Source: an uncultured Acidimicrobiia bacterium
GTDB taxonomy: Bacteria > Actinomycetota > Acidimicrobiia > IMCC26256 > JAENVU01
DNA: 64,000 bases
Direction of reading: 5' to 3'
Assembly (NCBI GenBank): GCA_963805415.1
Contig: CAWDUD010000004.1
Span: 9,803 to 73,802 of the forward strand
Below, one piece after another: positions 24,366-48,595 of the stretch; positions within the stretch are counted from its first letter, which is position 1, and each line of letters opens with the position of its first letter. Below the pieces are notes generated by a model that saw only the letters and a list, made by a program, of their open reading frames with translations, did no database searches and was not told where the DNA came from. The position numbers and the translations under genes were made by a program.

Positions 24366-24374
24366 GTTCCGTCC

Positions 24375-25007: not shown

Positions 25008-25010
25008 CGA

Positions 25011-26235: not shown

Positions 26236-26358
26236 GACGCGGAACGGAGGTACGCTCCATCATCCCGCATCACATTTGTGGAACAACCTACGACAAGCGA
26301 CACTATGAGGTGGGCGCGCGGGCACGACCACGAAATGTGCATTGACAAAGGGGTGGGA

Positions 26359-29801: not shown

Positions 29802-30114
29802 AAACCGGGCGCACCCGCGTTGCCAAAGTTATAACAAATATATAACGGAGGTCATCCGCTATTATCCAGCAGACGTCTTCTTTTAGGCAGCTAGAAGGGG
29901 TTCCGGTCAATATGTGCTGATATCACGCGAAACCGCTGCCAAGTGCAGCTATCGGGGAGTTCGTCACTGTGACGACTGGGTGGGGGTTTCATCGCCGTGG
30001 CCGGCCTATGAGTTCCTTGTCTTTGCTGTGGACCGCTCAGCCTGCTCGTCTGCGCATCGGCCTTGCTTCATGCGCCGACCCTCGGTCTGACGAGCCTGAG
30101 GGCGAGCAAGACAG

Positions 30115-31782
30115 ATGAAAATAGCGATGATGACTGAGGGCACCTATCCGTTCAGTTTCGGCGGGGTAAGCGTGTGGTGCGATCAGCTCATCCGCGGAAT
30201 GACTGGATATGAGTTCCAGCTAGTCGCCATCGCGGCGACGGAAGCCGAGCAAGTGGTGTGGTCACTGCCGGACAACGTCACCGCCGTGCACAAGGTGCTG
30301 CTCTGGGGTCGTTCGCCCGCCGGACCAGCGGGTCGGCGGCACGCCCTTCCAACCCGCATGCTGCGCGGGTTTATCGATGTAGTGCTCGACCCCTCGGCCC
30401 AGGCCCGTTTCGCCGATACGCTGCGCGAGTTGTTCGAGTTCTCACTTCACGGGAATCTTAGCGCTGGACTGGCCAGCGAGAAGGCCGTGCAGTTCCTAAG
30501 CGAGGCGTGGCGGGACCGGTGGTCAGGGGCAGGACAGTCCGTACCTACCCTGCATGATGCCGTCACCGCACTGCAACTGCTAGAGCACTGCCTTCGCCCG
30601 TTGTCATATTCGCCCATCCAGGCTGATATCGGGCATGCGGTGACAAATGGGCTCGGGGTGCTGCCTGCGCTGGCGGCGAAATGGCAATATGGCACGCCCT
30701 TGCTGCTTACTGAGCATGGCATCTATTTGCGCGAGCAGTACCTGGGGAATCGCAAGAGCCCTTACCGATGGCCGGTGAAGGCGTTCTACCTCGGATTTAT
30801 GCGCCACCTGTGTGCGCTCGGCTATAGCGAGGCTGCTATGATCACACCGGGGAATGTCTACAACCGGCGCTGGGAAGAGCGGCTCGGCGCGGAGCCGACG
30901 CACATTCGTACCGTATACAACGGGGTGGAGCCGGACAACTTCCCTGCTCTTGAGGGCGAGCCCGAGGTTCCGACGATCTCATGGGTCGGACGTGTTGACC
31001 CGATCAAGGATCTTGAGACGTTGCTGCGAGCGTTCAGCCTGGTGCACCGGGAAATGCCCGAGGCAAGGCTCCGCATGTTCGGGGCGCCCCCCAAGGGCAG
31101 GGAGTCCTACCTGCAGCGCTGCCGGGCGCTAGCCACGGAGCTCGGCATCAGCGATGTGGCGACGTTCGAGGGCCGGGTCGAGAACATCCGCGACGCTTAC
31201 GAGGCCGGCAGCGTCGTCGCGCTCTCCAGCGTTTCCGAGGGCTTCCCGTACAGCGTGATCGAGGCAATGACCTGCGGCCGTACGTGCGTGGCGACGGACG
31301 TAGGAGGGGTCACCGAAGCCGTCGGAGATACCGGCCTGGTGGTTCCTCCGCGCAGCCCCGCCCCCATGGCGCAAGCCTTCCTTACCCTGCTGCGGGACGA
31401 TGAACTGCGGCACCGGCTCGGCGCCGCTGCCCGCACCCGGGCGTTGGAGCGCTTCACGGTTGACGGGGCTATCAGCAGCTTCGATGAGATCTATAGCTTT
31501 ATCAGCGCCGGCCGCCGGGTGCCGGTCGCGGCGCCTGAGCCGGATGCCCATGACCGGCCTGAAGCCGATGACGAATCAGACCTGCCGCCGTGGGAGGCCC
31601 CAGATGACCGTGAGCACCACGTCGACGCAGCACGATCCGCCGTCTGGCCAGCTGGCACACGGAGTCCGGCGGCAAACGGCGGCAAACATCGCCGAGGATT
31701 CCAAGCCGCGCGGTCTGGAGCAGCTTTGCGAGCAGTTCGTGGAGGTGTGCGAATCCGCAGTCGATCCGCTGGAAATAACTAG
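30115..31782 (+). CDS. PelF-like GT4 glycosyltransferase (DUF3492-type N-domain + glycosyltransferase family 1 domain)
   Basis: 'MKIAMMTEGTYPFSFGGVSVWCDQLIRGM' matches the PelF N-terminal signature ('EGTWPYVRGGVSSW..Q'). 'LLLTEHGIYLRE', and C-terminal GT-B motifs 'ISWVGRVDPIKD' and 'ALSSVSEGFPYSVIEAMTCGRTCVATDVGG'. The last roughly 60 codons overlap the next gene and may not be real. Confidence 0.85.
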   Translation: MKIAMMTEGTYPFSFGGVSVWCDQLIRGMTGYEFQLVAIAATEAEQVVWSLPDNVTAVHKVLLWGRSPAGPAGRRHALPTRMLRGFIDVVLDPSAQARFADTLRELFEFSLHGNLSAGLASEKAVQFLSEAWRDRWSGAGQSVPTLHDAVTALQLLEHCLRPLSYSPIQADIGHAVTNGLGVLPALAAKWQYGTPLLLTEHGIYLREQYLGNRKSPYRWPVKAFYLGFMRHLCALGYSEAAMITPGNVYNRRWEERLGAEPTHIRTVYNGVEPDNFPALEGEPEVPTISWVGRVDPIKDLETLLRAFSLVHREMPEARLRMFGAPPKGRESYLQRCRALATELGISDVATFEGRVENIRDAYEAGSVVALSSVSEGFPYSVIEAMTCGRTCVATDVGGVTEAVGDTGLVVPPRSPAPMAQAFLTLLRDDELRHRLGAAARTRALERFTVDGAISSFDEIYSFISAGRRVPVAAPEPDAHDRPEADDESDLPPWEAPDDREHHVDAARSAVWPAGTRSPAANGGKHRRGFQAARSGAALRAVRGGVRIRSRSAGNN

Positions 31783-33156
31783 TGCACTGGAGTTCGACGG
31801 TCTAAGTGACCGGCTAGCGCGGAAGCGGTACGGCGCTTCTGATGTGTTTGCCCTGGCTGAGGAGATGTTCCGGCGTGTGCCGCGGCGGCCGGCCGAGCCT
31901 GGCCACAGCCCGACCCATGGCAGACAAGCAAGGTACGGGCCGCCCTGCACGGCCTGCTGTACGGGTTGCCGACTGTCTGCTTCGCGGCTTCGAACGGGCT
32001 GCTGGCCGGGCACGAGGTGCTCATTGTCCTCATCGTGGCCCTGCTCGCGTCGTGGGCGCTGGGCCAGGGCCTTGCCTATCTCGGGTACGCCCGGCTAAGC
32101 CGGGCTGATCGAGCTCAGGCGGCCCACCTGCTGCTCGTTGGCGAGGCCGCCGGGTTCGCGGGCATTGTCTGCGCCTTGGCCGTCACGTCCCTGGCGGTAC
32201 ACGCGCACGGTATGACGCTCATTTTCGGCCTGGGTCTCGGGGCATACATGCTCGGCGCCACGGTGCTGATGGTCTTGGGCGGCGAGCGACTGCTGCTGGT
32301 CGCGCTCGCGCCCGGGGTGCTGGGCTCCGCGACGTTCCTGATCCTCGGCCGGCCATCGCAGCTCCAGTACGCGGCCTGGGGGGGCCGTGGCCGCCACACC
32401 TGTGCTGGCTTTGACCATAGCCGCGGTCCGCTCCGGCTACGTCGCTGGCCTTTTCGGCAAGGCCAGGGAAGCGCGCAAGGGGCAGTCAGCTGGCAAGCTG
32501 CTGGTGGCCGCGAGTTGCGTGATGCGCTGCCGAGCGCTGGATTCGGACTGGTAGCCGCCGCGCTTTTGGTATTCCCGATCGCGGTCGCGTTGCTCGGGTC
32601 CCACGCTCCCACCGCCGGGGCAATGCTGGCCTCGCTGCCCCTGGCACTCAGCATGGGCGCCGCCGAGTGGCTGCTCATCTGGTTCCGACGGCGAACACGC
32701 CGGCTGCTGGGTAGCACACTGGACCTGCGGATCTTCAGATTCCGGGCCTGGATAGTGCTGTTTGCCGCCCTGCTGCAGTACCTGGCGGCCGCTATCCTGC
32801 TCACCGCTATTCTCGCCACGATCGCTAGCCTGGCTAACCTCGTTCATCTGCATGCGATAGCACTCACGCAGATCGCGGCGTACATGGCACTCGGCGGCGG
32901 GATGTTCCTGGCTTTGCTGCTACAGGCCTTCGGCAGCCGCACGTTCCCCCTGATCGCCTGTGCAGCAGCGCTGGCTGTCGAGGTCATGCTGCGTGGTCTA
33001 GGCGCATTGGGTCAGCTGCTGACGTGCGGGGCGTTGATGGTGGTGCTGGCTGTGTACGCGGCGGTGGTGCGGGGCGTGTGGTGCGGCATGGCTGAGATGG
33101 GTGCGAGCCCTCGCGGCCGGGCTGAGGAGCTAGGTAGGGGAGGGCATCGTGGGTGA
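31604..33156 (+). CDS. Polytopic membrane protein, unknown family (candidate exporter/co-synthase; about 3 frame breaks)
   Basis: ATG 31604 has a GGGAGG sequence 6 nt upstream. The cytoplasmic N-domain reads 'DPLEITSALEFDGLSDRLARKRYGASDVFALAEEMFRRVPRRPAEP', followed by at least 10 hydrophobic helices. Frames change near 31920, at the G7 run 32379-32385 and near 32505. Confidence 0.55.
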
Positions 33157-33771
33157 GCAGTCGTCATGGAATCCGTGGGACCAGCAGATTCCGAATCAGT
33201 GGCAGAGAACGTCTCTGTACCAGGGTCAGCCGTATCAAGGGCAGCCCGATCCGGGACAGTCCCTACACGGGCCTTCCGTCGGCGAGCCACCCCATCGTGA
33301 TCCCGGTTACCGTCCCCCGCCACAGCCGCACAGAACGCCACCTCGCGGGAACGGCCACTGGGTGCGGAACATCCTCTCCGGCGTCGGTGCCCTGGTCGTC
33401 GCCATCGTGCTGATCTATATCTTCTCGAGCCGCGGCGGCAGCGGCGCCTCATCCGACTCGCATGCGTCAGCCGCGTCCGCGCACCACTGGATCACGTACA
33501 CAGTCACCGGTACCGCGGCGCAGACGTGACCTACGGCCCGGCTGGGACCGAGATGAGCGCCATGGTTCCGATGAAGGTGACGGTTCCGCTCCAGAGTGCC
33601 TTGTTTTACACGATCACCGCCCAGCTCAACGGCCACGGCAAGGCGGCATGCGCGATCTCCGTCGACGGGAAGGTCATCGACCGGGCCAAGGCGACGGGTG
33701 GCCACCACATCGCACAGTGCGGGATCCAGCGGAACCAAGGCACGGGGACCTGGGAGAGCGTCCGGGGGTAG
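33149..33771 (+). CDS. MmpS-like membrane-anchored protein (frame break near 33524)
   Basis: GTG 33149 overlaps the upstream stop. There is a Pro/Gln-rich N-terminus, TM 'ILSGVGALVVAIVLIYIF', then 'ITYTVTGTAAQ|VTYGPAGTEMSAMVPMKVTVPL...ACAISVDGKVIDRAKATGGHHIAQC', typical of the MmpS-type beta-sandwich. Confidence 0.55.
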
Positions 33772-33789
33772 GCAGTAATCCCAGCAGGT

Positions 33790-34983
33790 CGGCCCCCGGG
33801 TGACTGATCAGGGTGCGGATCGCCTGGTAGCAGCACAGCATCGCGTAGATCTCCTGCCGGATCAACGGCGGGGATTTCGCTCGCAGGACGACGGCAGTAC
33901 CGCCACGGAGAGAGGTCTCCAGCTCATCGAAACAGGTTTTCAGCTGCCAGTGCCGGGCGTAGGCGCCCACAGCTTGATCCGCTGACAACACCGACGGATC
34001 GGTGATGTCGGTGACCAGGGGGAAGGCTTCAGGGAGCACGCTGCCGTTCCGGCTGGCGGCCGAGTACTCGATGACCCGGACCGGAATGCCGGGGATGGCA
34101 GGAGGATAGCCACCCTCGCGCCGCATCCGGCGGAGAACGCCGCCGGGGTTGGCAACGCGGAACAGGGTACCGACGGTCAGGAAGCAGCTCCAGCACCTGG
34201 TAGGTCCACATCATCCTCGCCCGTCATAGTACATGCGCCTTGGCTGCCAGCACATCCTCCAGCAAGCCGTGCGACAAGAAGTCGCGGCTGGCGAGCAGCA
34301 GGTCGTCGTGGGCATAGTAGTTGTTCAGCAGCTTGCTGGTCAGCGGCAGCTCTCCGGCATCCAGCGGCGCCAGCTCGGCCCCGGAGCACCGCCCAGGTCC
34401 CTGCACCGGCCCAAGCCGACGACGCGGACCGCGGAAAGGGTCCCGGCCCGGCGTGGTCGCCCGGATAGCCGAACTCGAGTCCCGTTCTCCCTGGTGGCCT
34501 GGACCTCCAGGCATATCCCGTTGACCGCGATCAGACGCATCCGGCTCCACCCGGGCGATGTCTGGCTGCTCTGCGGCCGACGGCCTGGCTGCTGCTGCTA
34601 GCTAGCCGCTGGATCGCCGGCCTGGAAAGCCGTTGCCGGGCCAGAGAATCGCGGCCGGGGAGGGCTGCGTGCCGAGCGCGGGCCTGCCGCGGCAACGATC
34701 GCGCCCGCCGCAACACCGAGTACCTTGCACCAGCTTGTCCCAGACCTGAGTGTAGCCGGACCCCGGGACAGATCACCACTACCAGAAGAAAGGACACTCG
34801 ACGACACGCGCGGGAAGGGTACCGCTTGCGCTGTCCCGGACCTCGGCCTCGTCAACGACCTTGTCGACCAGTTCCGGCGGGAAGACCTTTGCCGAAGTTG
34901 CGATCCCGATCCGGTCCGGCAGGTGGTTCCCCGAATCTCCCCGCTGTCTCTTCGGCGACGCAATCGCTATCTGTTCTGGTCAT
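33790..34983 (-). mobile_element. IS4-family transposase remnant (multiple frame breaks, 3' truncated)
   Basis: N-terminal IS4-type segment 'LPDRIGIATSAKVFPPELVDKVVDEAEVRD...LPARVV'. DDE region 'DDLLLASRDFLSHGLL' and 'VRVIEYSA...YARHWQLKTCFDELETSLRG...LRAKSPPLIRQEIYAMLCCYQAIRTLI'. The pieces lie in all three minus frames. No terminal inverted repeats were identified. Confidence 0.7.
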
Positions 34984-35561
34984 TCACCGCTGGAGGAGGG
35001 TTCACCGGCGCCGGGAGGTTCACTGCGGCGGTCACCTCGGTGATGATGGTGGTGCCTGTGGCCACCAGGCGGCGCGCCTTACCGAAGTCGCCGTGCGCAA
35101 TGTCCGTCCCGGCCTTTTCGAGGTCTTTCAGCGCGGATCTGTAGGCCTAAGCTTGTACCGGAGGCATAGGCCCGGCCAGCGCGGCCTTCGCGTCAGCGGC
35201 GAGCCGGGCGCCTGCAGACCTGGCTGAGCTGGCGCTGCGAGCCCGTTCCGCGGCGCCGAGCTTGCTCAGGTCGGCGTCGACGGCCGCGAGTAGCTAACTC
35301 GCGCGGCCGGCCACCCATTTCTGCTCCTTGTGACGGCAGCCTCCCTGATGACCGTGGGAGTGGCGGACGGGCCGATGACGGCGAATTCGCGCCGCCGCCG
35401 GCATTGACGATGACCCCGGCGATGATGCCGGGAACTATGACCGGCACCAGCACAGCAAGAGCCTTCTGCCAGCGTGACCATGACACCCATACGCGTGACC
35501 GTGACGCGGCCGGCGATCGCCGCGATCCCGGGCTCTTGGCCCGCTTCCCTGGCTTTGTCAT
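34967..35561 (-). pseudogene. Degraded ORF for a membrane-anchored hypothetical protein
   Basis: 'MTKPGKRAKSPG...ALAVLVPVIVPGIIAGVIV' (basic N-terminus + TM), then frame changes and one in-frame stop before 'YRSALKDLEKAGTDIAHGDFGKARRLVATGTTIITEV'. Confidence 0.25.
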
Positions 35562-35646
35562 GGCCCTCTCTTTTCCTATTTCCTCGGCATCGTTTTTCAG
35601 GGCTAGCCCTCCATCGGAGGGCTAGCCCCCTGGACCGTGGCTCAGC

Positions 35647-38600
35647 TCACCGTCAGGGTGAAGGTCTGCTTGGCTGAGCCGGCAGAGTTGGTGGCGGTGA
35701 TGGTAGGGGTGAGAGGTCCCGGCGGTGGTCGGGGTTCCCGACAGGGTTGCCGTCCCGTTGCCGGCATTGGTCCAGGCTCAACCCCGGCACGCTGCCGGTA
35801 CGGCTGAGGCTCGGTACCGGGTAGCCGCCGGTGGTGACCGTGAACGTGAAGGACTGCCCGTGGGTCGCCGTCGCCGACGGGGCGCTAGTGATCCCCGCCG
35901 CCTGGTTCACGGTCAGCGTGAATGCCTGCGTGGCGGTGCCCAGGGCATTCGACGCCGTGATCGTCAGGCGGTACACGCCGCCCTGGTTGACTCCGGGCGT
36001 GCCGGGCCAGGGTAGCCGTGCCGTTGCCGTTGTCGACCCAGGTCAGGCCCTGCGGGAGGGCACCGGCCTCGGCCAGCGTCGGCGCCGGCCCACCGGTCGC
36101 CTTGACGATGAAGGTGAACGCGGAGCCCGCCGTGGCCGTGGCCGATGCTGCCGAAGTGATCGCTGGCGGCCCTGTGACGGTCAGCACGAACGCCTGGGTT
36201 ACCGTGCCTGCTGAATTGTTCGCCGTGAAGGTCAGCGGTAGGTGCCGCCGTTTGCCGCCGTCGGGGTGCCTGTAATGGTTGCGGTCCCGTTGCCGCGGTT
36301 GGAGAAGCTGACACCGGCCGGAAAAGTCCCGCTAGGGGTCAGTGGTGGTGTATGGTGGCCGGCCTGCCAGTGGTGGTCACGGCGAAGGTGAACGCCGCCC
36401 CGACGTGGCCGTCGCGGTGGCCGGGCTGGTGAAGGCCGGCACGGTGCCTGCTGCCGGCGCCTTGACCGTAAGTGTCAAGGACTGAGAGACCGACCCCCGG
36501 CGTTGTTCGCGGTGAACGGCACGGTGTAGGGCCCGCCGCGACCGCTGGGGTGCCGGACAGCGTTGCCGTTCCATGCCGTTGCGGAGAAGCTCAGCCCGGC
36601 CGGCAGGTTCCCGGCGCTGAGCGCCGCCGCCGGGTACCCGGTGGGGTCGACCGAAAGGTGAAGGCCGTACCGGCGGTCTCGGTCACCGCGGCCGCGCTCG
36701 TGAAAGCCGGCGGTTGGTGACCGTCAGGGTGAACGCCTGGCTCGTCGTCCCCGTCAGTTCCTGGCGGTGATGGTCAGCGGGTACCGCCCTTGCCGCCGCC
36801 GTCGGGGTGCCGGACAGCGTCGCCGTGCCGTCGGCGTTGGCGAGGAACGTGATGCCCGGCGGCAGCGTCCCGGCCCTGGTCAAGGTGGGGGCCGGCGTTC
36901 CGGCCGTAGTGACCGTGAAGCTGAACGCCGTGCCCGAGGTCGCCGTCGCCGTGTTCGCGCTGGTGATGGCCGGCCCGCTGTTGACCGTCGAGGTGAAGGC
37001 CTGGGTAGCCGTTCCGGCGGATTGTTGGCGGCGATGGTCACCGGGTAGGTACCTGGCTGCCCGCGGCGGCGTGCCGGACAGCGTGGCGGTGCCGTCGCCG
37101 TTGTCCGTGAAGGTCACCCCCGACGGCAGCGCCGGCTGCTCGTGGCCGTCAGCGCCGCCGTCGGGTAACCGGTGGTCGTCACCGTGAACGACCCGGCCGT
37201 CCCGGCCGTGAACGTCGTCTTGTTGGCGCTGGTGATCGCCGGCGCCGCGTTGCGGGTTGACGGTCAGCGTGAAGCTCTGGGTCGCGTCGGGCCGACGCCG
37301 TTCGCGGCGGTGATCGTGAACGGGTAGGTGCCGCCGGTCCGGCGGCCGGGGTGCCGGCCAGCGTGGCCGTGCCGTCGCCGTTGTCGGTGAAGGTGACGCC
37401 GGACGGCAGCGACCCGGTCTCGGTCAGCGCCGCGTGTCGGGCTGCCGGTCGTCGTCACCGTGAACGAGCCCGCCGTGCCGACGGTGAATGCCGTTGATCG
37501 GCGCTGGTGATCGCCGGGGCGGTCTGGGCGCGTTCACCGTCAGCGTGAAGCTCTGGGTCGCGTTGGAGCAGCACCCCGTTGCGGCGGTGATCGTGAGCGG
37601 GTAGCTGCCGCCGGTGCCGGCGGCCGGGGTGCCGGCGAGCGTGGCCGTGCCGTCGCCGTTGTCGATGAAGGTGACGCCGGACGGCAGCGTCCCGGTCTCG
37701 GTCATCGCCGCGGTCGGGATGCCGGTCGTCGTCACCGTGAACGACTCCGCCGTGCCCACGGTGAACGTCGCCGTGTTCGGCGCTGGTGATCGTCGGGGCC
37801 TGCTGAACGGTGACCGTGAACGTCTGCGTGGATCGGGCCGACGCCGTTGGTGGCGGTGATCGGGATACGGGTACGTGCCGGCGCGTCGGGGTGCCGGCCA
37901 GCGTGGCCGTGCCGTCGCCGTTGTCGGTGAACGTCACGCCCGGAGGCAGGCCGGACTCACCCCAGGTCGTCGCCGGGAAGCCGCCGTGGTGACGGTGAAC
38001 TGACGGCGACCCGACGCCCCCGTGGCGGTGTCGGCGCTGGTGATAGCCGGCGACTGGCCGACGATGACCGTGAAGGCCTGGGTGGCGTCGGGGCTGACCC
38101 CGTTGCTGGCGGTGATGGTCACGGGTGGCGTGCCGGTGGCCGTGCGGGGTGCCCGAGAGATGGCGGTGCCGTCGGCCGTTGTCGGTGAACGTCAGCCCGG
38201 CGGGCAGCGTTCCGGTCTCGGTGATCGTCGGCGTCGGCGAACCGGTCGTAGTGATCGCCACGCCCCCGCCTGGTTCAGCGTGAAGTCGGCGGTCGGACGA
38301 CTGGTGATGGTCGGCGCGGTGGCCGCGCTCACGGTGATGGTCAGGTTCAGCGTCGCCAGGCTGCCCGAGGATTGGTGGCCGTGATCGTGACCGGGTAGCT
38401 CCCCGCCGAGCCGCCGGCAGGGGTGCCGGCGATGGTCGCGGTGCCGTCGCCGTTGTCCTTGAACGTCAGCCCGGAGGGCAGGGTCCCGGATTCGGTGATC
38501 GAGGCTCGGGTAACCGGTGGTGGTGACTGTATAGGTGCCCGCCACGCCGGTGCTGAAGGGTGCCGTGCTCGGCACTGGTGATGGTCGGCGCCTCGGCGCT

Positions 38601-38860
38601 GGTCAGCGTGAAGCTCTGGGTCGCGTCGGGCCGGCCCCGTTCGGTGGCGTGATCGTCAGCGGGTAACTGCCGCCGGTGCCCGACGCTGCGGTGCCCGCGA
38701 TGGTCGCGGTGCCGTCGCCGTTGTCGGTGAAGGTGATGCCGGAGGGCAGCGCCCCGGTCTCGGTGAGCATCGGCGCCGGGCACCGGTGGTGGTCACCGTG
38801 AAGCTGAAGGGTGCCCACGATCGAGGTGGCCGAGGATGCGCTGGTGATTGCCGGGCCCAC
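35647..38860 (-). repeat. About 12 tandem coding repeats of about 270 nt (putative Ig-like / He_PIG-type domains)
   Basis: The 'ITSA' motif recurs about every 270-280 nt (near 38850, 38590, 38310, 38040, 37790, 37510, 37240, 36965, 36430, 36170, 35890). The copies are divergent, not identical. Confidence 0.8.
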
Positions 38861-41460: not shown

Positions 41461-42293
41461 GACCCTACCGGACCGGAACGCGCAACGCTTAGTAATACAG
41501 CAGTTTCGGAAGGCCTAAATAGAACATGCTGGTCACGGGACCAGCAAGCAGAGTGCGGCTATGCCACTAGAAGATATGGACCAGCGTCTTCCGAGTCTGC
41601 CATCTCTATGATGCCTGACGGCATGCGCCGGATTACATCAGACGCAGAAATTCTCGCCATGGCCAAAAAGCGGCGTTTCTGTTATGGCTACGTGACCTTC
41701 ACTACGGCGCCGCATAGGGTAGCACGGGGCCTTCCGGCCGGACAGGGGGTTTCGACGAGATCCCTTCTTACTGGGCTCCGGCTACCCTCACATAACGTTT
41801 GTCCGTTTTGTTCGCCTGGTTATCCCGTTACACGCCAGATGATCGAATCGCCCGTTTAGAAGACTTAATTCTGTCGATCGGAGAACCACAAGCGGCTAGT
41901 ACATCCGGTCCGGCGTAAACCGACTTATCTGCTGGCGCGTCATTTACTGTGCTGAAGCACCGCGAAATAGGTCTGACTGCGATCCCAAAGTTGGACAACA
42001 GAGGCCGGGCCACTGCGATCCGGCGACAATCAAGGGGGGCCGATGCGCCATACCGCATGCCATAGCAACCGGGTTCGTACAGTACCGGCTGTCGCGCTGA
42101 GGCCCCTTGACCACGAAGTGCCCGCGGTGGCAACCGCCGACGGGATGACCGAAATAACCAGCCTGATGTTCGCGTGCACGACCTTCATTTCCCAGGCCCG
42201 CACAGGCCTGCGCGCACGCTTAGCGTGCGGGGAGTTGGTGGTGGTGCTGCGGGCGGGCTGGCGTGAGTGTTCTGTTCGGGAGGGGTAGTGAGC

Positions 42294-43291
42294 ATGGCGG
42301 AGCGGGTTGCGGTTACGGGCGCCGACGGGTTCATCGGCTCGCACCTCGTGGAGCGCCTCGTCGAGCGCGGCCACCGCGTCCGCGCGATGGCCCTGTACAA
42401 CTCCTTCGGATCCTGGGGCTGGCTCGACACCCTGCCCGCCGAGGTGATGGCGAACGTCGAGGTCGTGCTCGGTGACGTGCGCGACGCCGGCTGCGTGGAC
42501 CCGTTCGTCGAGGGCGCCGAGGTGGTCTACCACCTCGCCGCGCTGATCGCGATCCCTTACTCGTACACGGCGCCGCGCTCGTACGTCGAGACGAACGTCG
42601 TCGGGACGCTCAACGTGCTCGAGGCGGTGCGGCGGCACGGGACCGGCCGGATGGTCCACACCTCGACGAGCGAGACGTACGGGACGGCGCGGACGGTGCC
42701 GATCAGCGAGACGCACCCGTTGCAGGCGCAGTCGCCGTACGCCGCGAGCAAGCTCGCCGCGGACAAGCTCGCCGAGAGCTTCCACCTGAGCTTCGAGGTG
42801 CCGGTCGCGACGCTGCGTCCCTTCAACACCTTCGGGCCGCGGCAGTCCAACCGGGCGGTGATCCCGACCGTCGTCGGCGCAGATGGCCGCCGGGGGCGAA
42901 GGTCGTCGAGCTCGGGGCGCTCACCCCGACCCGGGACTTCCTGTTCGTCAAGGACACCGCCGACGCGTTCGTCGCGATGGGCACCGCCCCCGCGGACGCC
43001 GTCGTCGGCCGGGTCCTCAACGCGGGCACCGGTGAGGAGATCTCGATCGGCGGCCTCGTCGAGACGATCGCGGAGATCATGGGCCTGGCCGTCGAGGTCC
43101 GGCAGGACCCGAAGCGGATGCGCCCGGACGGCTCGGAGGTGCAGCGGCTGCTGGCCGACGCCTCCGCACTGCGTGCCGCCACCGGCTGGGCGCCACGGCA
43201 CGACCTGCGCAAGGGCCTCGCGGAGACCGCCGACTGGTTCCGCGACCCGGCCAACCTCGCTCGTTACCGCACATCCGCGTACGTCGTCTGA
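42294..43291 (+). CDS. NAD-dependent sugar-nucleotide epimerase/dehydratase (extended SDR; two frame breaks near 42872 and 42895)
   Basis: ATG 42294 after GGGAGGGG. 'VTGADGFIGSHLVERLVERGHRV', 'ALYNSFGSWGWLD', catalytic 'SPYAASK', 'LRPFNTFGPRQ', then in another frame 'LTPTRDFLFVKDTADAF'. Confidence 0.8.
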
Positions 43292-43310
43292 GCGCGAAGG
43301 AGTCACGACC

Positions 43311-44035
43311 GTGCATGCAGTGGTGCTCGCAGGCGGCAAAGGCGTCCGCCTCCGCCCGTACACGACCGGCCTCCCCAAGCCCCTGGTGCCCATCGGTGAG
43401 GAGCACTCCATCCTGGAGATCGTCCTCATGCAGCTCGCGGACCGCGGGTTCACCGACGTCACGCTCGCGATCGGCCACCTGGGCCAGCTCATCCGCGCGT
43501 TCGTCGGCGACGGCCGCCGATGGGGCATCCGGGTCGACTACCTCGAGGAGTCAGGCCCGCTCGGCACGATGGGCCCGGTCGTCCAGCTCGCGGACCGACT
43601 GCCCGAGCACTTCCTGGTGATGAACGGCGACATCCTCACCGACCTCGCCTACGACGAGCCCTGCTGCACCAGCACGTGGCGGCGACCTCGGCGCTGACGG
43701 TCGCGACGTACGAGCGGGAGGTCTTGGTCGACTTCGGTGTGCTCGACGTCGTCGAGGACGCACGTGGTCGGGTTCCGCGAGAAGCCGCGCTCCACCAGTG
43801 CGGGTCAGCATGGGCGTCTACGGCGTGATCACCGGCCGCGCTGGAGCGGTACCGGCCGGTACCGCCCTTCGGCTTCGACGACCTCGTGCTCGACCTGCTC
43901 GGCCGGGGCGAGCCGCCGACCAGCTACCCGTTCGCGGGCTTCTGGCTCGACATCGGCCGCCCCGAGGACTACGACCGCGCCAACGCCGAGTTCGGCCGAT
44001 CCTGCTGCCGCAGCGTTCCAAGGAGGCCGGTGTGA
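43311..44035 (+). CDS. Sugar-1-phosphate nucleotidyltransferase (about 3 frame breaks)
   Basis: GTG 43311 after GAAGGAG. 'VVLAGGKGVRLRPYTTGLPKPLVPIG', 'LVMNGDILTDL'. The C-terminal part 'YPFAGFWLDIGRPEDYDRANAEF' is in another frame. The stop overlaps the next start (GTGA). Confidence 0.75.
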
Positions 44036-44960
44036 ACCATCGTGTGGTGTTGTTCGGCGCGTCCGGGTTCATCGGCGGGCACGTGCGTGCCGCGCTGGGG
44101 GAGGCCGATCCCGGCGTTGAGACGGTGGCTCTGCCCCCGGGCCAGGCGCCAGCACGATCTGATCGATGGTGGACCACGACGGGCTGGTCCGCGTGCTGGG
44201 CTCGACCATGCGCCGACCGCGATGGTCGCGGGGGCCTTCGTCGGCCGCCTCGGCGGCACCGGCTCCGACCTCCTGGCGCGGCAACACCCTGGTCGCGACC
44301 AAGCTGCTGGAGAAGACCGGCGCCGTGGCAGCGGCCCCGGCGTGCGCCTGGTCCGGCTGGGCTCCGCCGGAGAGTACGGCGTAGTGCCGCAAGCGGCCAC
44401 AGTGTCACCGAGTACGCCACCGACGCTGCCCGTGGCCGCGTACGGCGTCAGCCACCTGGCCGGCACCCGGCTGTTCCAGCTCGCGGGGGAGAGCGGGCTG
44501 GCCGACGCGGTGTCGCTGCGGGTGTTCAACCCGATCGGGCCCGGCCTGTCGGCTGAGGAACATGCTGGGCCGCGCCACCGACCGGATCCGTGCGGCGCTG
44601 GCTTTCCGGGGCTGGAGCGAGATCACCATGGGGCCGCTGTCGGCGTACCGGGATTTCGTCGACGTCCGGGATCTGGCGGCCGCAGTCCCGGGCTGTGCTG
44701 CGGCCGCCGGGGCTGTTGCGCCACCGGGTGTTCAACATCGGCAGCGGCCGGGCGGTGCCGGTCCGGGCGATGGCCAAGGAGCTCTGCGCCATCAGCGGCT
44801 GCGCCGTCTCGGTGAATGAGGATTCGCAAGACCTGGCGCGCCCGGTAGACATACCGTGGCAGCAGGCGGGCAATTGACCCGCGCCGTCGAAGACCTAGGC
44901 TGGAAGCCCCGCCGTGATCTTGCGACCTCGCTCATCGACCTGTGGGAGGCAAGCGCGTGA
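44032..44960 (+). CDS. Second NAD-dependent epimerase/dehydratase-family protein (5 or more frame breaks)
   Basis: GTG 44032 after AGGAGG. 'VVLFGASGFIGGHVRAAL', 'VRLGSAGEYG', 'AAYGVSHLAGTRL', 'RVFNPIGPG', 'YRDFVDVRDLAAAV', 'VFNIGSGRAVPVRAMA', 'DLGWKPRRDLATSLIDLW', spread over three frames. Confidence 0.6.
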
Positions 44961-45718
44961 ATCCGCACGCAGCTGATGGCACCGACCTGATCATACCGCT
45001 GCTCATCGTGCCGGCCTATTTCCATCCGGCCGTCGACCCGGACGATTGGGCGTGGCTGGTTCGCCATGCGAAGCAGATCCGGATGATCGTGCTCAACCCG
45101 GCCAGCGGGCCGGGTCCGGAGCCCGACGAGGCCTACTTCCCGGTACTGGACCGGTTGCGTTCTGCCGGGGTGGTGGTGAGTGGCTACGTTGATACCAACT
45201 ATGGCCAGCACCCGGCATGCCGGCCAGCGACGGGGATCGGGAACTGCCTGGACTGGTATGACGTGGACGGGGTCTTCTTCGATCGTGTCGCGACGGGCGC
45301 CGATCAGCTTGGCCATTATGCGGACCTCGCCCGCCGTGCGCGGGACATGGGAGCGGACGTGGTGGCGTTCAATCACGGGGCGCACCCGATCGAGGCCTAT
45401 GCCGAGCACGCCGATCTACTCGGCACCTTCGAGGGTCCCTGGAACGCCTATCTCGAGATGGCCGTGCGACGCTGGGAGAGGTCGCGAGGAGCCGGGCAGT
45501 TCTTCCACCTCCTGCATTCGGTGCCGACCTCTTTCTTCAGCGACGCGATCTGGCTTGCGGCCCGGCGCAAGGCGGGCAGCGTTTACATCACGGATCGTAG
45601 CGGAGCCAACCCCTGGGACAGCAGCCGGCCGGCGAGTTCGACCCGCGGTCTCTGTGGTCGGCCATCCTCACTGGTCACGATGATCCCCGTCGGGTCTGAG
45701 CCCGCCCAGAGGATATGA
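44957..45718 (+). CDS. Spherulin-4 family protein (Sph3/GH135-like), no signal peptide
   Basis: GTG 44957 overlaps the upstream stop (GTGA). 'LLIVPAYFHPAVDPDDWAWL', 'IVLNPASGPG', 'GVVVSGYVDTNYG', 'WYDVDGVFFDRV'. The frame is intact. Confidence 0.7.
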   Translation: MNPHAADGTDLIIPLLIVPAYFHPAVDPDDWAWLVRHAKQIRMIVLNPASGPGPEPDEAYFPVLDRLRSAGVVVSGYVDTNYGQHPACRPATGIGNCLDWYDVDGVFFDRVATGADQLGHYADLARRARDMGADVVAFNHGAHPIEAYAEHADLLGTFEGPWNAYLEMAVRRWERSRGAGQFFHLLHSVPTSFFSDAIWLAARRKAGSVYITDRSGANPWDSSRPASSTRGLCGRPSSLVTMIPVGSEPAQRI

Positions 45719-46690
45719 CGGATAGTCTGCGACGCGATGCCGACTTGGCCGCGCCGGGCAAAGGCGGCAGAAAGTTTCACCGTCGGCCCCCGGCCCGCAG
45801 GCCGCGGGTCGTCTTGCTGACGACCGCCGTCGTGCTGATCGCGGCGGCTGGCGTGGCGGTCCGAACGGTCCTGGAAAATGCCCCGCCGTGCCAGAAGACG
45901 CTTGTACCTGCGTATTTCTATCCGGGAGCGGATTGGACCACGGCTATCGACAGCAACCCTGCGCCTGGCCTCATGATCCTTGATATCACCGAGTCCGGCG
46001 CTGGCAGTTCGCCGGACCGGACCTACCAGGCCACGGTCAAGCGGGCGCGGGCCGCGGGAATCACGATCATGGGCTACGCCAGCACCGGTTATGCGCGACG
46101 TTCCCTGGCGGCGGTCGAGGCAGATATCAGGCACTACAGGACCTGGTACGGGGTGACCGACATCTTTCTCGATCAGGCCTCTAGTAGCAGCGGCGACATG
46201 ACGTACTACCGGCGCCTGTCCGGCTACGCACACGGCCTGAATCCCGGGTCGGCCGTGATGCTCTCTCAATCCCGGTACGTTTCCTGACCAGCAATATATG
46301 TCGCTGGGCGACATTATAATGGTATTCGAGAATACTTATGCCAGCTACGTTAATCTCCAGATTCCTGGATGGATCCACAAATATCCTGCCGCCAGGTTCG
46401 CTCATGTAATTTACGCGACCTCGGGAGCGCAGTTCGTCAATGCCATCAGCTTGAGCCGTAAGCGGCAAGCCGGTTATGTCTATGTGACCGACGGTACTGG
46501 GTTGCAGCGCTACAATCGGCTGCCTTCCTATTGGTCACGCGAAGACGCGATATTTGCGAAATGCGCCGACGCTGACATATTCGGTAGTCCGGCGGAGCGG
46601 GCTCAGATAGCGCTATCGGCAGGGACTGCGCTGGCCGGCCAGGGCCGTCGTGAACAATGTCCCATCTATGCCATGGGAAACATCGAATGA
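45715..46690 (+). CDS. Spherulin-4 family protein (Sph3/GH135-like), membrane-anchored (frame break near 46262)
   Basis: ATG 45715 overlaps the upstream stop (ATGA). Signal anchor 'VVLLTTAVVLIAAAGVAV'. 'LVPAYFYPGADWTTA', 'ITIMGYASTGYARR', 'WYGVTDIFLDQA'. The second half 'NPGTFPDQQYMSLGDIIMVFENTYASY...GYVYVTDG' is in the ORF 46298-46690 frame. Confidence 0.7.
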
Positions 46691-47720
46691 GCAGAACTTG
46701 GTGAGCGCCGTGGCGGTGTCACTGCCCCAGTCATCGGTATACTCGGCGTCCAGCACCAGTTTCCCGGCTTTCACGTATGGTGCCGTCACGCCTCCGCAGG
46801 TGTGGAAGAAGTTGCATTCCTCGTCCAGCAGGAAGTCCGTGGTCGGCTCCAGCGCCGCAGAGAACTTAGCGTCGTTATCGCCGTTCTTCTGCCCCCAAGC
46901 GAGCCCGAGACTGTGCGCGTAAGCACCGAGCAGCTTGTTGTACTTTATGTTATCGCTCTCGGTGATCCTAAAACCGGTCGCATTGGTATAAGAGTCGTCA
47001 ATATCCGGCTCGACTGCATCGAAGCCCTTGGCGGAGCACTGCTGCCTTATCATCGACTTGATGATGCGGATCGTCGAGGCTGCGTTAATGTTGAGATAGC
47101 GCTCGGAGTATCCGGGCATCGCGGCGCCTAGATCTCCGGCGGCTTTCAATTGCGCGAAGTAGGTTACCGGAATGCCCTCCTGCGAGGCCGAGAAATAGTC
47201 GCCGACCGCGCCGATCTCGATGTAGCAGATCACCTTGTCGTGCAGGCTGTGCAGCGCCCTGACCGCCGAGGCAGGGTTATCAATGCCATCGATATCGTAG
47301 ACGGTCGGGTTCTGCGCTTGCCGACTGGCGGCATTCATCGCCTTCTCGCCCATGTCCGCCGCGCCGTGTACGTTCAGCGCATGATCCAGTTCCCACTGAA
47401 ACTCGGGCCCATTATTTGGGCCGGTAGCCCTGGGGTGCCACCACATGCAGGGCCTTGGATGCCGCCACGACAGGTGCATGAGCTACCGACTTGCCACTGG
47501 TCACAGCAGCGGCCGACGCGCTGGTCACAGCAGTCGCCGACGCGGAAGATCCCGACACGGGAGCTGCTGGCACGGTCCCGGGACTCGGACGTGTATGAGT
47601 GATACTCGCAGCCGGCGATTCGTGACTGGAACCGCCGCAGGCGGCGACCAGCACCAAGGTAAGTCCGGCGACTATAGCCGCTGCCTGTTTCGTAACTTTT
47701 GAGTCCGACTTCCCGCCCAT
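46613..47720 (-). CDS. GH114-like endo-alpha-1,4-polygalactosaminidase lipoprotein (frame break near 47450)
   Basis: Lipobox 'LVLVAACGG' (ORF 47412-47720). Then 'FQWELDH...VYDIDGIDN...KVICYIEIGA...GFDAVEPDIDDSY.NATGF...AHSLGLAWGQKNG...DFLLDEECNFFHTC...KLVLDAEY' (ORF 46613-47479). Confidence 0.75.
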
Positions 47721-47939: not shown

Positions 47940-47958
47940 ATGATCAGCGCGGCGGTCA
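47940..47958. repeat. Right copy of the 19-bp direct repeat ATGATCAGCGCGGCGGTCA
   Basis: Identical to 26213-26231. Confidence 0.95.
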
Positions 47959-48595
47959 CGGCCGGCATCGCGAAGACCGTGAGGAACGCGGTGACGAGCA
48001 TCATCCAGACGAACACCGGCATCCGCATGAGCGTCATGCCCGGCGCTCGCATGTTCAGGATCGTCACGATGAAGTTCACTCCGGACGTCACCGAGCCGAT
48101 CCCGAGCATCACGAGGCCGACCGCCCAGAAGTCGGGACCGTGGCCGGGCAGCGCACCGCCGGTGAGCGGGGTGCTGGTGAGCGGCGTGTAGCCGAACCAG
48201 CCACCGTTCGGGGCTCCACCGAGCACGAAGCCGGAGTAGATGAACAGCCCGCCGAGGGCGAACACCCAGAACCCGAACATGTTGAGGCGTGGGAACGCGA
48301 CGTCACGGGCGCCGATCAGGAGCGGGACGAGGTAGTTGCCGAAGGCGACCGCGAGCGGCATGCCGACCAGGAAGACCATCGTCGTGCCGTGCATCGTGAA
48401 CAGGGTGTTGTACTGGTTCGCCGACAGGACGGTGCCGTTCGGCCCCGCGAGCTGGAGCCGGATGAGGAGCGCCTCGATCCCGGCGACGACGAAGAAGACG
48501 AGCGCGAGACTTCCGTAGAGGATGCCGATCTTCTTGTGGTCGACCGTCGTCCACCAGGACCAGAACCCGGTGGTCTCCTTCGGGCGCCGCAACAT
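47940..48595 (-). pseudogene. ctaD: ctaD, N-terminal third (about 218 codons)
   Basis: 'FWSWWTTVDHKKIGILYG...YNTLFTMHGTTMVFLVGMP...GARDVAFPRLN...[38 protein letters not shown]'. Beyond 47940 the open frame continues into non-CtaD island sequence until 47672. Confidence 0.9.

What the first reader, a model, noticed from the sequence alone, without database searches (positions are those of the whole stretch)
30115..47720. Pel / galactosaminogalactan-like exopolysaccharide locus pairing a PelF-type synthase with fungal-GAG-type processing enzymes
The island encodes, in order:
- a PelF-like GT4 glycosyltransferase (30115-31782; the N-terminal 'EGTYPFSFGGVSVW' signature of the PelF/DUF3492 family);
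- a large polytopic membrane protein (31604-33156) and an MmpS-like protein;
- an Agd3/CE18-like deacetylase (35647-41460; 'DIDD' and 'HTWSH' motifs about 125 residues apart);
- two SDR epimerase/dehydratases with a nucleotidyltransferase (42294-44960);
- two spherulin-4 family (Sph3/GH135-like) proteins (44957-46690);
- a GH114 (Ega3-like) endo-alpha-1,4-polygalactosaminidase lipoprotein (46613-47720).
Established knowledge: the Aspergillus fumigatus galactosaminogalactan cluster is uge3-sph3-ega3-agd3-gtb3. Pseudomonas Pel uses PelF (GT4), PelG (membrane) and PelA (hydrolase/deacetylase). Both polymers are alpha-1,4-linked, GalNAc-rich and partially de-N-acetylated.
Inference: this locus has a counterpart for every GAG function but uses a Pel-type soluble synthase plus a separate membrane protein, and it lacks PelB/C/D/E. 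I therefore predict a cationic GalN/GalNAc-type adhesive polymer made by a hybrid pathway in an actinobacterial background. I cannot tell from the sequence whether this exact gene combination has been described. The 4-nt start/stop overlaps (GTGA at 44032 and 44957, ATGA at 45715) show the right-hand genes were a translationally coupled operon.
Basis: partly seen in the sequence, partly recalled or inferred. Interest (0 to 1): 0.85.

Follow-up and report, generated by a model that had tools for sequence, protein, structure and literature searches.

The report
Known-type actinobacterial Pel/GAG-like polysaccharide cluster, broken copy
The region does encode a Pel/galactosaminogalactan-like sticky-polysaccharide gene cluster, but this gene combination was already catalogued in Actinobacteria in 2020, and this copy is interrupted by about 80 reading-frame breaks and sits as an inserted block inside a respiratory gene.

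Summary
There is a PelF-family GT4, a polytopic membrane partner and a long Agd3-like deacetylase. There is also an SDR / nucleotidyltransferase / SDR cassette, two Spherulin-4 (GH135-like) genes and a GH114 lipoprotein gene.

The cluster is conserved: about 45 of 76 related loci link the Agd3-like gene to these partners. The "hybrid" combination is not new. Bamford et al. 2020 (PMC7229062, Suppl. [quoted passage not shown]

- About 80 frameshifts hit all genes except PelF and one Spherulin-4 gene (49 in the deacetylase, with no stop codon). They are not homopolymer-linked and are as frequent as substitutions in near-identical blocks, so assembly error is more likely than decay.
- A decayed IS4 transposase and a small membrane-protein gene lie inside the island.
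- The island plus an NB-ARC/WD40 gene is a 21.7-kb insert splitting ctaD, flanked by an exact 19-bp direct repeat. It is a circular permutation of the arrangement in near-identical relatives, where the cluster is intact.
- SDR1 resembles a LegB-type 4,6-dehydratase rather than a Uge3-type epimerase.

Verdict: new member of a known kind; low-to-moderate interest.

The parts
25011..26231 (-). 3' part of ctaD (cytochrome c oxidase subunit I). It has an extra 1-nt frameshift near 26055.
   Evidence: Pfam COX1 model positions 234-435. phmmer to M. smegmatis CtaD 6adq_F residues 288-542. The [15 protein letters not shown] segment lies in another frame at 26270-26060.
26213..26231 (+). Left copy of the exact 19-bp direct repeat ATGATCAGCGCGGCGGTCA, at the insert boundary.
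   Evidence: two exact matches in the window, none expected in shuffles. The repeat encodes TAALI of CtaD on the minus strand.
26305..29693 (+). NB-ARC/WD40 STAND NTPase gene, part of the inserted block. One frameshift at about 27934.
   Evidence: Pfam NB-ARC, APAF1_C and WD40. 1125/1128 identical to the intact 1129-aa gene of contig_5248, with one frameshift.
30115..31782 (+). PelF-family GT4 glycosyltransferase, 555 aa, intact.
   Evidence: Pfam DUF3492 plus GT1/GT4. NCBIfam PelF equivalog 162.5 bits > 100. No frameshift against the L030 PelF. 99% identical to P0121.
31739..33096 (+). Polytopic membrane partner (about 452 aa, roughly 10-12 TM segments), not recognisably PelG. Four frameshifts (31901, 32380, 32510, 33070).
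   Evidence: 444/449 identical to the L077 protein, with 4 frameshifts. Hydropathy. No Pfam or NCBIfam hit.
33362..33772 (+). One frameshift at 33512.
   Evidence: No family hit.
33676..34946 (-). IS4-family transposase remnant with 10 frameshifts and 1 nonsense codon.
   Evidence: The intact L077 copy hits NCBIfam IS4 at 153 bits and Pfam Nterm_IS4.
34969..35486 (-). Small TM-anchored helical protein (about 173 aa), conserved downstream of the deacetylase gene. Two frameshifts and 2 TAG codons.
   Evidence: Conserved in L002, L014, L026, L037, L077 and L079.
35641..41377 (-). Long-form Agd3-like deacetylase gene (about 1930 aa when intact). Layout: signal peptide, an N-terminal domain matching Pfam CBM87_Agd3, a CE domain with DIDD/HTWSH and an insert of roughly 190 aa, then about 11 He_PIG Ig-like repeats. 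49 frameshifts, 0 stop codons.
41378..42293 (.). Low-GC divergent intergenic region between the deacetylase gene and SDR1. It contains a conserved but unconvincing 81-codon ORF at 42043-42288.
   Evidence: No Rfam family.
42294..43292 (+). SDR1, an NDP-sugar 4,6-dehydratase-like extended SDR (LegB-like). Two frameshift events near 42876-42892.
43311..44035 (+). Sugar-1-phosphate nucleotidyltransferase. Four frameshifts.
44032..44960 (+). SDR2, an extended SDR weakly similar to GalE, RmlD and Fcl. Five frameshifts.
44957..45718 (+). Spherulin-4 / GH135-like protein, intact, with no N-terminal hydrophobic segment apparent by eye.
   Evidence: Pfam 105 bits. phmmer to Sph3 5C5G, E 6.5e-9. Motifs.
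45715..46690 (+). Second Spherulin-4 / GH135-like gene, with an N-terminal TM anchor. It is split at about 46264-46290 and has a shifted C-terminus; homology ends near 46610.
46613..47720 (-). GH114 (Ega3-like) lipoprotein gene. One frameshift at about 47471 separates the lipobox leader from the catalytic domain.
   Evidence: Pfam 160 bits. phmmer to Ega3 6OJ1, E 1.5e-13. The frameshift is private to the window. Lipobox.
47940..47958 (+). Right copy of the 19-bp direct repeat.
47940..48595 (-). 5' part of ctaD.
   Evidence: Pfam COX1 model positions 1-183. CtaD 6adq_F residues 28-236.

Best explanation
The island is one copy of the actinobacterial Agd3-type, synthase-dependent exopolysaccharide cluster that Bamford et al. 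(2020) catalogued by bioinformatics.

Inferred mechanism:
- A cytoplasmic PelF-family GT4 and a polytopic (roughly 10-12 TM) membrane partner polymerise and export a hexosamine-rich, probably alpha-1,4-GalNAc-type, polymer.
- An SDR / nucleotidyltransferase / SDR cassette supplies an activated sugar.
- Outside the cell, a long-form Agd3-like metal-dependent de-N-acetylase makes the polymer cationic and adhesive. It has an N-terminal domain matching Pfam CBM87_Agd3, DD and HxxxH motifs, and about 11 Ig-like repeats that could act as a wall-spanning stalk.
- Two GH135-like proteins and a GH114 lipoprotein trim or release the polymer.

Shown here: family membership of PelF, GH114 and Spherulin-4; homology of the deacetylase to Agd3; conservation of the gene linkage.
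Inferred only: the polymer chemistry and the roles of the individual proteins.

As written, this copy cannot be expressed, because about 80 frameshifts interrupt 11 of its 13 genes. These breaks are most likely consensus errors of a long-read metagenome assembly in a repeated, mosaic segment (about 70%) rather than true pseudogenisation (about 30%). A near-identical relative, ENA ERZ25039490 contig_5248, carries every gene intact.

The cluster plus an NB-ARC/WD40 gene forms a 21.7-kb block inserted in ctaD, flanked by a 19-bp direct repeat. The block is a circular permutation of the relatives' arrangement.
For: Gene families:
- Family assignments.

Deacetylase homology to Agd3:
- A profile of 60 intact long-form proteins matches a 600-aa paralog with hhalign probability 100%, E 2e-41, across all of its domains.
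- That paralog hits Agd3 (6NWZ) at E 5.8e-13 and passes both Pfam Agd3 models.
- An AF2 model of a homolog (P0002, 66% identical to the window's 247-aa CE fragment) has Agd3 as its best PDB match: E 3.6e-12, 213 columns, rmsd 3.1 A.
- DIDD and HTWSH lie 126 residues apart, against 132-133 in Agd3.

Linkage and prior description:
- Conserved linkage.
- Prior description.

Frameshift tally.

Error-like pattern of the frameshifts:
- 1-nt indels follow the background run-length distribution: 54% at non-repeated bases against 51% expected.
- There are 0 nonsense codons in the deacetylase gene where 8.5 are expected if its substitutions were random.
- The window's private substitutions are biased to the third codon position (76/48/121; 92 synonymous, 121 non-synonymous), which indicates continued purifying selection.
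- In blocks only 0.1-0.9% divergent from contig_5248, indels are about as many as substitutions.
- There are no large deletions.
- The indel-rich stretch coincides with the 6.7-kb segment that is duplicated in contig_5248. One copy there also carries 9 frameshifts and no stop.
- The relatives come from Nanopore soil metagenomes.

ctaD insertion.
Against: - The 42 kb of flanking sequence has long intact ORFs and only one frameshift (in ctaD). A general quality problem is therefore excluded, and a local cause has to be assumed.
- The small TM gene has two TAG codons and the IS4 remnant one TGA. The IS4 substitutions are spread evenly over codon positions, as in real decay.
- PelF (1.67 kb) has no frameshift, which selection would also explain.
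- No reads are available, and the source contig could not be retrieved.
- The profile of the long-form family finds nothing in PDB sequences, and the Pfam Agd3_CE model is below threshold. CE18 membership therefore rests on a transitive link and on the N-terminal half of a structure model.
- The LegB-like dehydratase hints at a sugar other than GalNAc.
Confidence: 0.7

Rival explanations
1. The locus is a true pseudogene relic. After the 21.7-kb block was inserted into ctaD as a redundant second copy of the cluster, most of its genes lost function and accumulated frameshifts.
For: - About 80 frameshifts lie in the insert against about 1 in the 42 kb of flanks.
- There are nonsense codons in the small TM gene and in the IS4 remnant.
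- ctaD itself carries an extra frameshift near the junction.
- contig_5248 has two deacetylase copies, one of them broken, so redundancy exists.
Against: - Indels are not enriched in homopolymers.
- The indel-to-substitution ratio is about 1:1 in near-identical blocks.
- There is no stop codon in 1932 codons, and the private changes are third-position biased.
- There are no large deletions.
- The window's private branch in the deacetylase gene is roughly 30 times longer than in the adjacent 99.85%-identical PelF block. Neutral decay over the same time cannot produce that difference.
Confidence: 0.28
2. The cluster makes a different polymer from Pel/GAG, for example one containing a 6-deoxy-hexosamine, because its sugar-nucleotide cassette is a dehydratase / nucleotidyltransferase / reductase set rather than a UDP-GlcNAc 4-epimerase.
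For: - SDR1 scores 432.6 bits on the LegB 4,6-dehydratase model, and JGI names its homologs NDP-hexose 4,6-dehydratase.
- The nucleotidyltransferase is generic.
- SDR2 is only weakly GalE-, Fcl- or RmlD-like.
Against: - All three processing enzymes have their nearest solved relatives among enzymes for alpha-1,4-GalNAc/GalN polymers.
- SDR1 is below the LegB cut-off of 475 bits.
- Bamford et al. class the same genes as 'Epi, GTA, Epi'.
Confidence: 0.25
3. The placement of the island inside ctaD is an assembly chimera. A circular or tandemly repeated unit was threaded into a chromosome contig; it is not a biological insertion.
For: - The insert is a circular permutation of the relatives' order, and its length equals the 21,744-bp repeat period of contig_5248.
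- The insert is mosaic, with 99.85%, about 92% and about 78% identity blocks.
- No integrase gene was seen among the genes identified in the insert.
- No independent contig carries the junction.
Against: - The two ctaD halves are exactly complementary and are separated by an exact 19-bp duplication, with none expected by chance.
- Long-read assemblers do not join on 19-bp identities (own knowledge).
Confidence: 0.2

Closest known systems
Bacterial agd3-containing exopolysaccharide operons of Actinobacteria (Bamford et al. 2020, Nat Commun 11:2450, Suppl. Data 2), e.g. Actinoplanes sp. [quoted passage not shown]
   Same: - The same set of gene families is present.
- For PelF-TM-SDR-NTP-SDR-GH135-GH114 the order is also the same.
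- The system is monoderm, with no outer-membrane Pel parts.
- It is uncharacterised experimentally.
   Different: - The deacetylase here is a long form: about 1930 aa against 618-894 aa in their list.
- It has an insert of roughly 190 aa after HxxxH and about 11 He_PIG repeats.
- It is on the opposite strand, between the TM gene and SDR1.
- There are two GH135 genes.
- An IS4 remnant lies inside the cluster.
- This copy is frame-broken and lies inside ctaD.
Aspergillus fumigatus galactosaminogalactan cluster (uge3-sph3-ega3-agd3-gtb3)
   Same: Agd3-like, Sph3-like (GH135) and Ega3-like (GH114) processing enzymes are clustered with a synthase and sugar-nucleotide genes.
   Different: - The synthase is a soluble PelF-type GT4 with a separate membrane protein, rather than Gtb3.
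- SDR1 is dehydratase-like rather than the Uge3 epimerase.
- The Glu of the Sph3 FFDE motif is replaced (FFDR in one GH135-like protein, FLDQ in the other).
Pel systems (P. aeruginosa pelABCDEFG; Gram-positive pelDEADAFG of Bacillus cereus, Whitfield et al. 2020)
   Same: - A PelF equivalog is present.
- The product is predicted to be a partially de-N-acetylated GalNAc-type polymer.
- The system is synthase-dependent.
   Different: - No PelD or PelE (c-di-GMP receptor and scaffold) was found.
- There is no recognisable PelG.
- There is no PelA or PelA_DA; deacetylation and hydrolysis are assigned to Agd3-, GH114- and GH135-type proteins.
Amplifiable units of DNA (AUD) of Streptomyces: a unique segment between long direct repeats (own knowledge)
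   Same: In contig_5248 the cluster lies in an R-U-R structure. R is 6.7 kb at 96% identity and the period is 21.7 kb. That structure could loop out a circle of exactly the size of the window's insert.
   Different: No amplification was observed. Re-insertion into ctaD with a 19-bp duplication is not a described AUD outcome.

Membership tests
PelF (GT4, DUF3492 N-terminal domain) | Match to the curated PelF equivalog and to the DUF3492 plus GT4 domains over the full length | tested here: met
   NCBIfam NF038011 162.5 bits (cut-off 100), model positions 2-489 of 489. Pfam DUF3492 175.3 bits plus Glycos_transf_1.
Pel system (as an operon) | Presence of PelD, PelE and PelG (and PelA or PelA_DA) next to PelF | tested here: not met
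   No Pfam or NCBIfam match to PelG, PelD or PelE for the membrane protein, the 136-aa ORF, the 173-aa ORF or any other island ORF scanned.
Agd3 / CE18 + CBM87 | Agd3 multi-domain architecture, homologous over its length | tested here: met
   The link is transitive. The profile of 60 long-form proteins aligns with residues 56-599 of a 600-aa paralog (hhalign probability 100%, E 2e-41). That paralog hits 6NWZ Agd3 at E 5.8e-13. A direct profile search of PDB sequences finds nothing.
Agd3 / CE18 + CBM87 | Catalytic motifs CM1 (DD) and CM2 (HxxxH) separated by more than 120 residues | tested here: met
   DIDD at 40572 and HTWSH at 40194 are 126 residues apart. In Agd3 the residues are D377/D378 and H510/H514.
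Agd3 / CE18 + CBM87 | CM3 arginine and CM4 catalytic histidine | tested here: inconclusive
   Candidates DASRQP (39543) and YAHQ (39255) are present and conserved in the family. They align with DASRAP and YTHQ of the paralog. They were not aligned to the Agd3 structure.
Agd3 / CE18 + CBM87 | Pfam CBM87_Agd3 gathering score | tested here: met
   The intact ortholog L079 scores 33.8 bits and L014 27.7 bits against a cut-off of 27.6. The window fragment alone scores 21.6 bits.
Agd3 / CE18 + CBM87 | Pfam Agd3_CE gathering score | tested here: not met
   The best long-form score is 24.6 bits, below 27.6 (L029). L014, L030 and L079 give no hit. The short paralog passes at 36.6 bits.
Agd3 / CE18 + CBM87 | Fold resembles the Agd3 crystal structure | tested here: inconclusive
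   The N-terminal part (pLDDT above 90 for residues 40-245) has 6NWZ as its best PDB match, E 3.6e-12. The CE domain was modelled at low confidence twice.
Agd3 / CE18 + CBM87 | Metal-dependent de-N-acetylation of alpha-1,4-GalNAc polymer | not testable with these tools
   Needs an enzyme assay.
GH135 (Sph3 / Spherulin-4) | Match to the Spherulin4 family and to Sph3 | tested here: met
   Pfam PF12138 scores 105 bits, and 68.9 plus 31.5 bits for the split gene. phmmer to 5C5G gives E 6.5e-9.
GH135 (Sph3 / Spherulin-4) | Conserved acidic active-site residues (Asp-Glu of FFDE and the later FE glutamate; residue roles from own knowledge of Bamford et al. 2015) | tested here: inconclusive
   The Asp and the FE glutamate are conserved. 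The Glu of FFDE is Arg (FFDR) in the first gene and Gln (FLDQ) in the second, and the same holds in their intact orthologs.
GH114 (Ega3-type endo-alpha-1,4-polygalactosaminidase) | Match to the GH114 family and to Ega3 | tested here: met
   Pfam PF03537 160.3 bits, model positions 2-227 of 231. phmmer to 6OJ1 gives E 1.5e-13, with the PD and NEQC/DEEC acidic positions aligned.
Bacterial agd3-type EPS operon (Bamford et al. 2020) | An Agd3 homolog clustered with a cytoplasmic GT-B, a multi-span TM protein and GH114 (plus or minus GH135, Epi, GTA) | tested here: met
   All are present in the window. The same linkage occurs in about 45 of 76 related loci.

The most novel reading that the evidence does not exclude
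The exopolysaccharide cluster is part of a 21.7-kb excisable unit. In relatives the unit lies between 6.7-kb direct repeats, each made of the deacetylase gene plus the small TM gene. Recombination between those repeats would release a circle. In this genome that circle re-inserted into ctaD with a 19-bp duplication. If so, whole Pel/GAG-like clusters, carrying an undescribed long-form CE18-like deacetylase, can move as repeat-generated circles without an integrase gene of their own.
Probability: 0.2. Interest if true: 0.55.

Novelty: new member of a known kind. Interest (0 to 1): 0.3.

Why it matters
No actinobacterial Agd3-type cluster has been characterised experimentally, so any intact member is a route to testing whether soil actinomycetes make a cationic GalNAc/GalN adhesin like fungal GAG and Pel. 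This copy is not the one to use. The near-identical contig_5248 cluster or cultured carriers are better starting points.

The long-form deacetylase is widespread: 74 distinct loci from species-representative genomes, mostly Acidimicrobiia, Streptosporangiales, Pseudonocardiales, Kitasatospora and Streptomyces. It falls below the CE18 Pfam threshold, so it is probably missed by automated CAZy-type annotation.

The case also shows that frame-broken 'pseudogene islands' in long-read metagenome assemblies need read-level checks before they are interpreted biologically.

Tried and rejected
- A profile of 60 intact long-form proteins against PDB sequences gave no hit at E<=1. The link to Agd3 had to be made through a 600-aa paralog.
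- The second AF2 model, meant to show the fold of the insert after HTWSH, reached only pLDDT 51 and was not searched.
- The protein database returned only fragments of at most 433 aa for the deacetylase family, although intact genes exist.
- Rfam found no riboswitch or other RNA in the island.
- Pfam and NCBIfam gave nothing for the 'MmpS-like' ORF, the small TM protein, the 81-codon ORF or the membrane partner.
- Two metagenome scans, one for the empty ctaD site and one for the left junction, found nothing.
- The window's own proteins are in the collection on a 120,014-bp NCBI/ENA contig, but the contig could not be fetched. Organism and sequencing method are therefore inferred from relatives.
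- Rejected: homopolymer-type sequencing error.
- Rejected: raw-read gap filling, because substitutions outnumber indels about 7:1 in the divergent blocks.
- Rejected: introns, because the frame changes are single-nucleotide shifts with no intervening sequence.

Full report
**Observation**

The window is high-GC actinobacterial DNA. Its flanks carry long intact ORFs with GC3 around 0.93. Between about 26 and 48 kb the coding signal is weaker and the frames change often.

- 30115-31782 is a PelF-family GT4. Pfam DUF3492 gives 175 bits, and the NCBIfam PelF equivalog gives 162.5 bits against a cut-off of 100.
- 46613-47479 (minus strand) is GH114, at 160 bits.
- 44942-45718 and 45715-46690 are Spherulin-4 genes.
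- 42267-43697 holds an epimerase/dehydratase domain and a nucleotidyltransferase domain in a single ORF; a frame-aware alignment shows two genes with frameshifts.
- The minus strand from 41.4 to 35.6 kb encodes a very large protein with DIDD and HTWSH 126 residues apart, followed by Ig-like repeats.
- The three 4-nt start/stop overlaps exist.

**The deacetylase**

Its Pfam matches to the Agd3 models are weak. On the window fragment CBM87_Agd3 scores 21.6 bits. On the closest intact ortholog it scores 33.8 bits, above the 27.6 cut-off. Agd3_CE is never above threshold on the long form. A profile of 60 intact relatives finds nothing in PDB sequences.

Homology to Agd3 is nevertheless well supported.
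- A 600-aa paralog from a related locus hits Agd3 (6NWZ) at E 5.8e-13 and passes both Pfam models.
- The long-form profile aligns with that paralog over all of its domains, with hhalign probability 100% and E 2e-41.
- An AF2 model of a homolog (P0002, 66% identical to the window's 247-aa CE fragment) has Agd3 as its best PDB match: E 3.6e-12, rmsd 3.1 A over 213 columns.

Relative to Agd3-sized proteins, the long form has three additions: about 25 residues after DIDD, an insert of roughly 190 residues after HTWSH, and about 11 He_PIG repeats at the C-terminus.

**Linkage**

A scan of species-representative genomes gave 74 distinct loci. They come from Acidimicrobiia, Streptosporangiaceae, Pseudonocardiaceae, Thermoleophilia, Kitasatospora and Streptomyces.

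In about 45 of 76 loci the long-form gene lies within 10 kb of homologs of PelF, SDR1, the nucleotidyltransferase, SDR2, Spherulin-4 or GH114. The Streptomyces and Kitasatospora isolates carry it without those partners within 10 kb. Intact genes are 1000-2900 aa long.

**Comparison with the literature**

Bamford et al. [quoted passage not shown] GH114 is usually present, and spherulin-4 genes occur in some Actinobacteria. [quoted passage not shown] SE50/110, and similar strings for many actinomycetes.

Their homologs are 618-894 aa long, so the long form seen here is apparently not in their set.

The locus is not a Pel operon in the sense of Whitfield et al. 2020 (pelDEADAFG). No PelD, PelE or PelG is detectable.

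**Sugar supply**

SDR1 is closest to the LegB-type 4,6-dehydratase model, at 432.6 bits against a cut-off of 475. The nucleotidyltransferase is generic. SDR2 is weakly GalE/Fcl/RmlD-like. The mapping of the SDRs onto Uge3 is therefore not secure, and the polymer may contain another sugar.

**Processing enzymes**

The first Spherulin-4 protein matches Sph3 (5C5G) at E 6.5e-9, and GH114 matches Ega3 (6OJ1) at E 1.5e-13.

In both Spherulin-4 proteins the Asp of the Sph3 FFDE motif and the later FE glutamate are kept. The Glu of FFDE is Arg in one and Gln in the other, and the same holds in their intact orthologs.

**Frame breaks**

I wrote a frameshift-aware protein-to-DNA aligner and used the closest intact orthologs as guides.

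| Gene | Frameshifts | Stop codons |
|---|---|---|
| Deacetylase (90% aa identity to the guide) | 49 | 0 |
| IS4 remnant | 10 | 1 |
| SDR2 | 5 | 0 |
| Nucleotidyltransferase | 4 | 0 |
| Membrane gene | 4 | 0 |
| SDR1 | 2 | 0 |
| Small TM gene | 2 | 2 (TAG) |
| 136-aa ORF | 1 | 0 |
| Second Spherulin-4 gene | 1 | 0 |
| GH114 | 1 | 0 |
| NB-ARC/WD40 gene | 1 | 0 |
| PelF | 0 | 0 |
| First Spherulin-4 gene | 0 | 0 |

The total is about 80.

Close relatives exist. A JGI contig (L077) and four ENA contigs (L078-L082) carry the same genes. In contig_5248 every gene is intact, including a 1932-aa deacetylase.

**Are the breaks real?**

Several features argue for consensus error.
- The 1-nt indels follow the background homopolymer distribution.
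- The deacetylase gene has no nonsense codon, where 8.5 would be expected if its substitutions were random.
- The window's private substitutions are third-position biased (76/48/121; 92 synonymous against 121 non-synonymous).
- In blocks that differ from contig_5248 by only 0.1-0.9%, indels are about as frequent as substitutions.
- Gene lengths are preserved.
- The indel-rich stretch (31.9-41.4 kb) coincides with a segment that is duplicated in contig_5248. One copy there also shows 9 frameshifts and no stop.
- The relatives come from Nanopore soil metagenomes.

Other features argue for real decay.
- The flanks are clean.
- The small TM gene and the IS4 remnant carry nonsense codons.
- PelF is spared.

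I put the split at about 70% artefact and 30% decay. Only reads can settle it.

**Context**

The genes flanking the block are halves of one ctaD gene.
- Residues 28-236 of CtaD are encoded at 48595->47940.
- Residues from about 237 to 542 are encoded at 26231->25014.
- COX2 lies upstream; COX3, COX4 and CtaG lie downstream.
- An exact 19-bp repeat (ATGATCAGCGCGGCGGTCA) sits at both junctions, with none expected by chance. Removing the insert plus one repeat copy restores the CtaD sequence.

In the relatives the two ends of the insert are contiguous: GH114, then 26 nt, then NB-ARC. contig_5248 shows the cluster between 6.7-kb direct repeats with a period of 21,744 bp, which is the insert length. 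The window's block is therefore a circular permutation of that unit.

The block is also mosaic relative to contig_5248:
- 99.85% identical over the NB-ARC gene and PelF;
- about 92% over the deacetylase gene;
- about 70% over SDR1-SDR2, with third-position bias;
- about 96% over Spherulin-4 and GH114.

**Verdict**

The system is a new member of a known kind, in a copy that is unusable as sequenced.

Noticed in passing
window 25011-26231 and 47940-48595 (minus strand); repeats at 26213-26231 and 47940-47958: ctaD (cytochrome c oxidase subunit I) is split by a 21.7-kb insert. The insert carries the NB-ARC/WD40 gene plus the whole polysaccharide cluster and is flanked by an exact 19-bp direct repeat. 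No integrase gene was seen among the genes identified in the insert.
   Followed up: partly
L081+L079 (ENA ERZ25039490 contig_5248, 68563-99758): positions 2499-9154 and 24243-30902: In a near-identical relative the cluster lies between 6.7-kb direct repeats (small TM gene plus deacetylase gene, 95.9% identical). The period is 21,744 bp, equal to the window's insert length. The window's gene order is a circular permutation of that arrangement.
   Followed up: partly
window about 26055: There is an extra 1-nt frameshift in the 3' part of ctaD, about 160 nt outside the insert: SRKPLFG is read as SRQAALR.
   Followed up: partly
window 33676-34946 (minus strand): An IS4-family transposase remnant lies inside the cluster, between the 136-aa ORF and the small TM gene. 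It is intact at the same site in L077, L078 and L079, and absent next to repeat copy 1 of contig_5248.
   Followed up: partly
window 26305-29693: An NB-ARC/WD40 STAND NTPase gene travels with the cluster in all close relatives. In the window it is broken by a single frameshift at about 27934.
   Followed up: partly
window 42800-44800: The SDR1-NTP-SDR2 block is about 30% divergent at the nucleotide level from relatives that are 96-99.85% identical on either side. The divergence is third-position biased. This indicates allele or xenolog replacement, or a chimeric assembly.
   Followed up: partly
protein database search, compared with loci L003-L076: All 127 database hits to the deacetylase catalytic fragment are pieces of at most 433 aa, many with out-of-frame tails. 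Yet intact 1000-2900-aa genes exist in about 60 genomes. The family seems to be poorly represented or fragmented in protein collections.
   Followed up: partly
L029, L044, L047-L050, L052, L055-L057, L060: Cultured Kitasatospora and Streptomyces species carry an intact long-form Agd3-like gene (1038-1261 aa). None of the PelF, GH114 or Spherulin-4 partners lies within 10 kb.
   Followed up: no
L024, L028, L034, L036, L054: Some Acidimicrobiaceae MAGs have two long-form deacetylase genes in tandem, one as long as 2927 aa.
   Followed up: no
window 41378-42293: A roughly 0.9-kb low-GC (about 0.55) divergent intergenic region lies between the deacetylase gene and SDR1. Part of it, including an 81-codon ORF, is almost identical in relatives. 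No Rfam family matches.
   Followed up: partly
window 31535-31782: PelF has a low-complexity C-terminal extension of about 60-80 aa, shared with its closest relatives (555-563 aa against about 495 aa typical). It overlaps the start of the membrane gene.
   Followed up: no
window 8230-8305 (minus strand): tRNA-Asn (GTT) is the only RNA gene found in the window.
   Followed up: no
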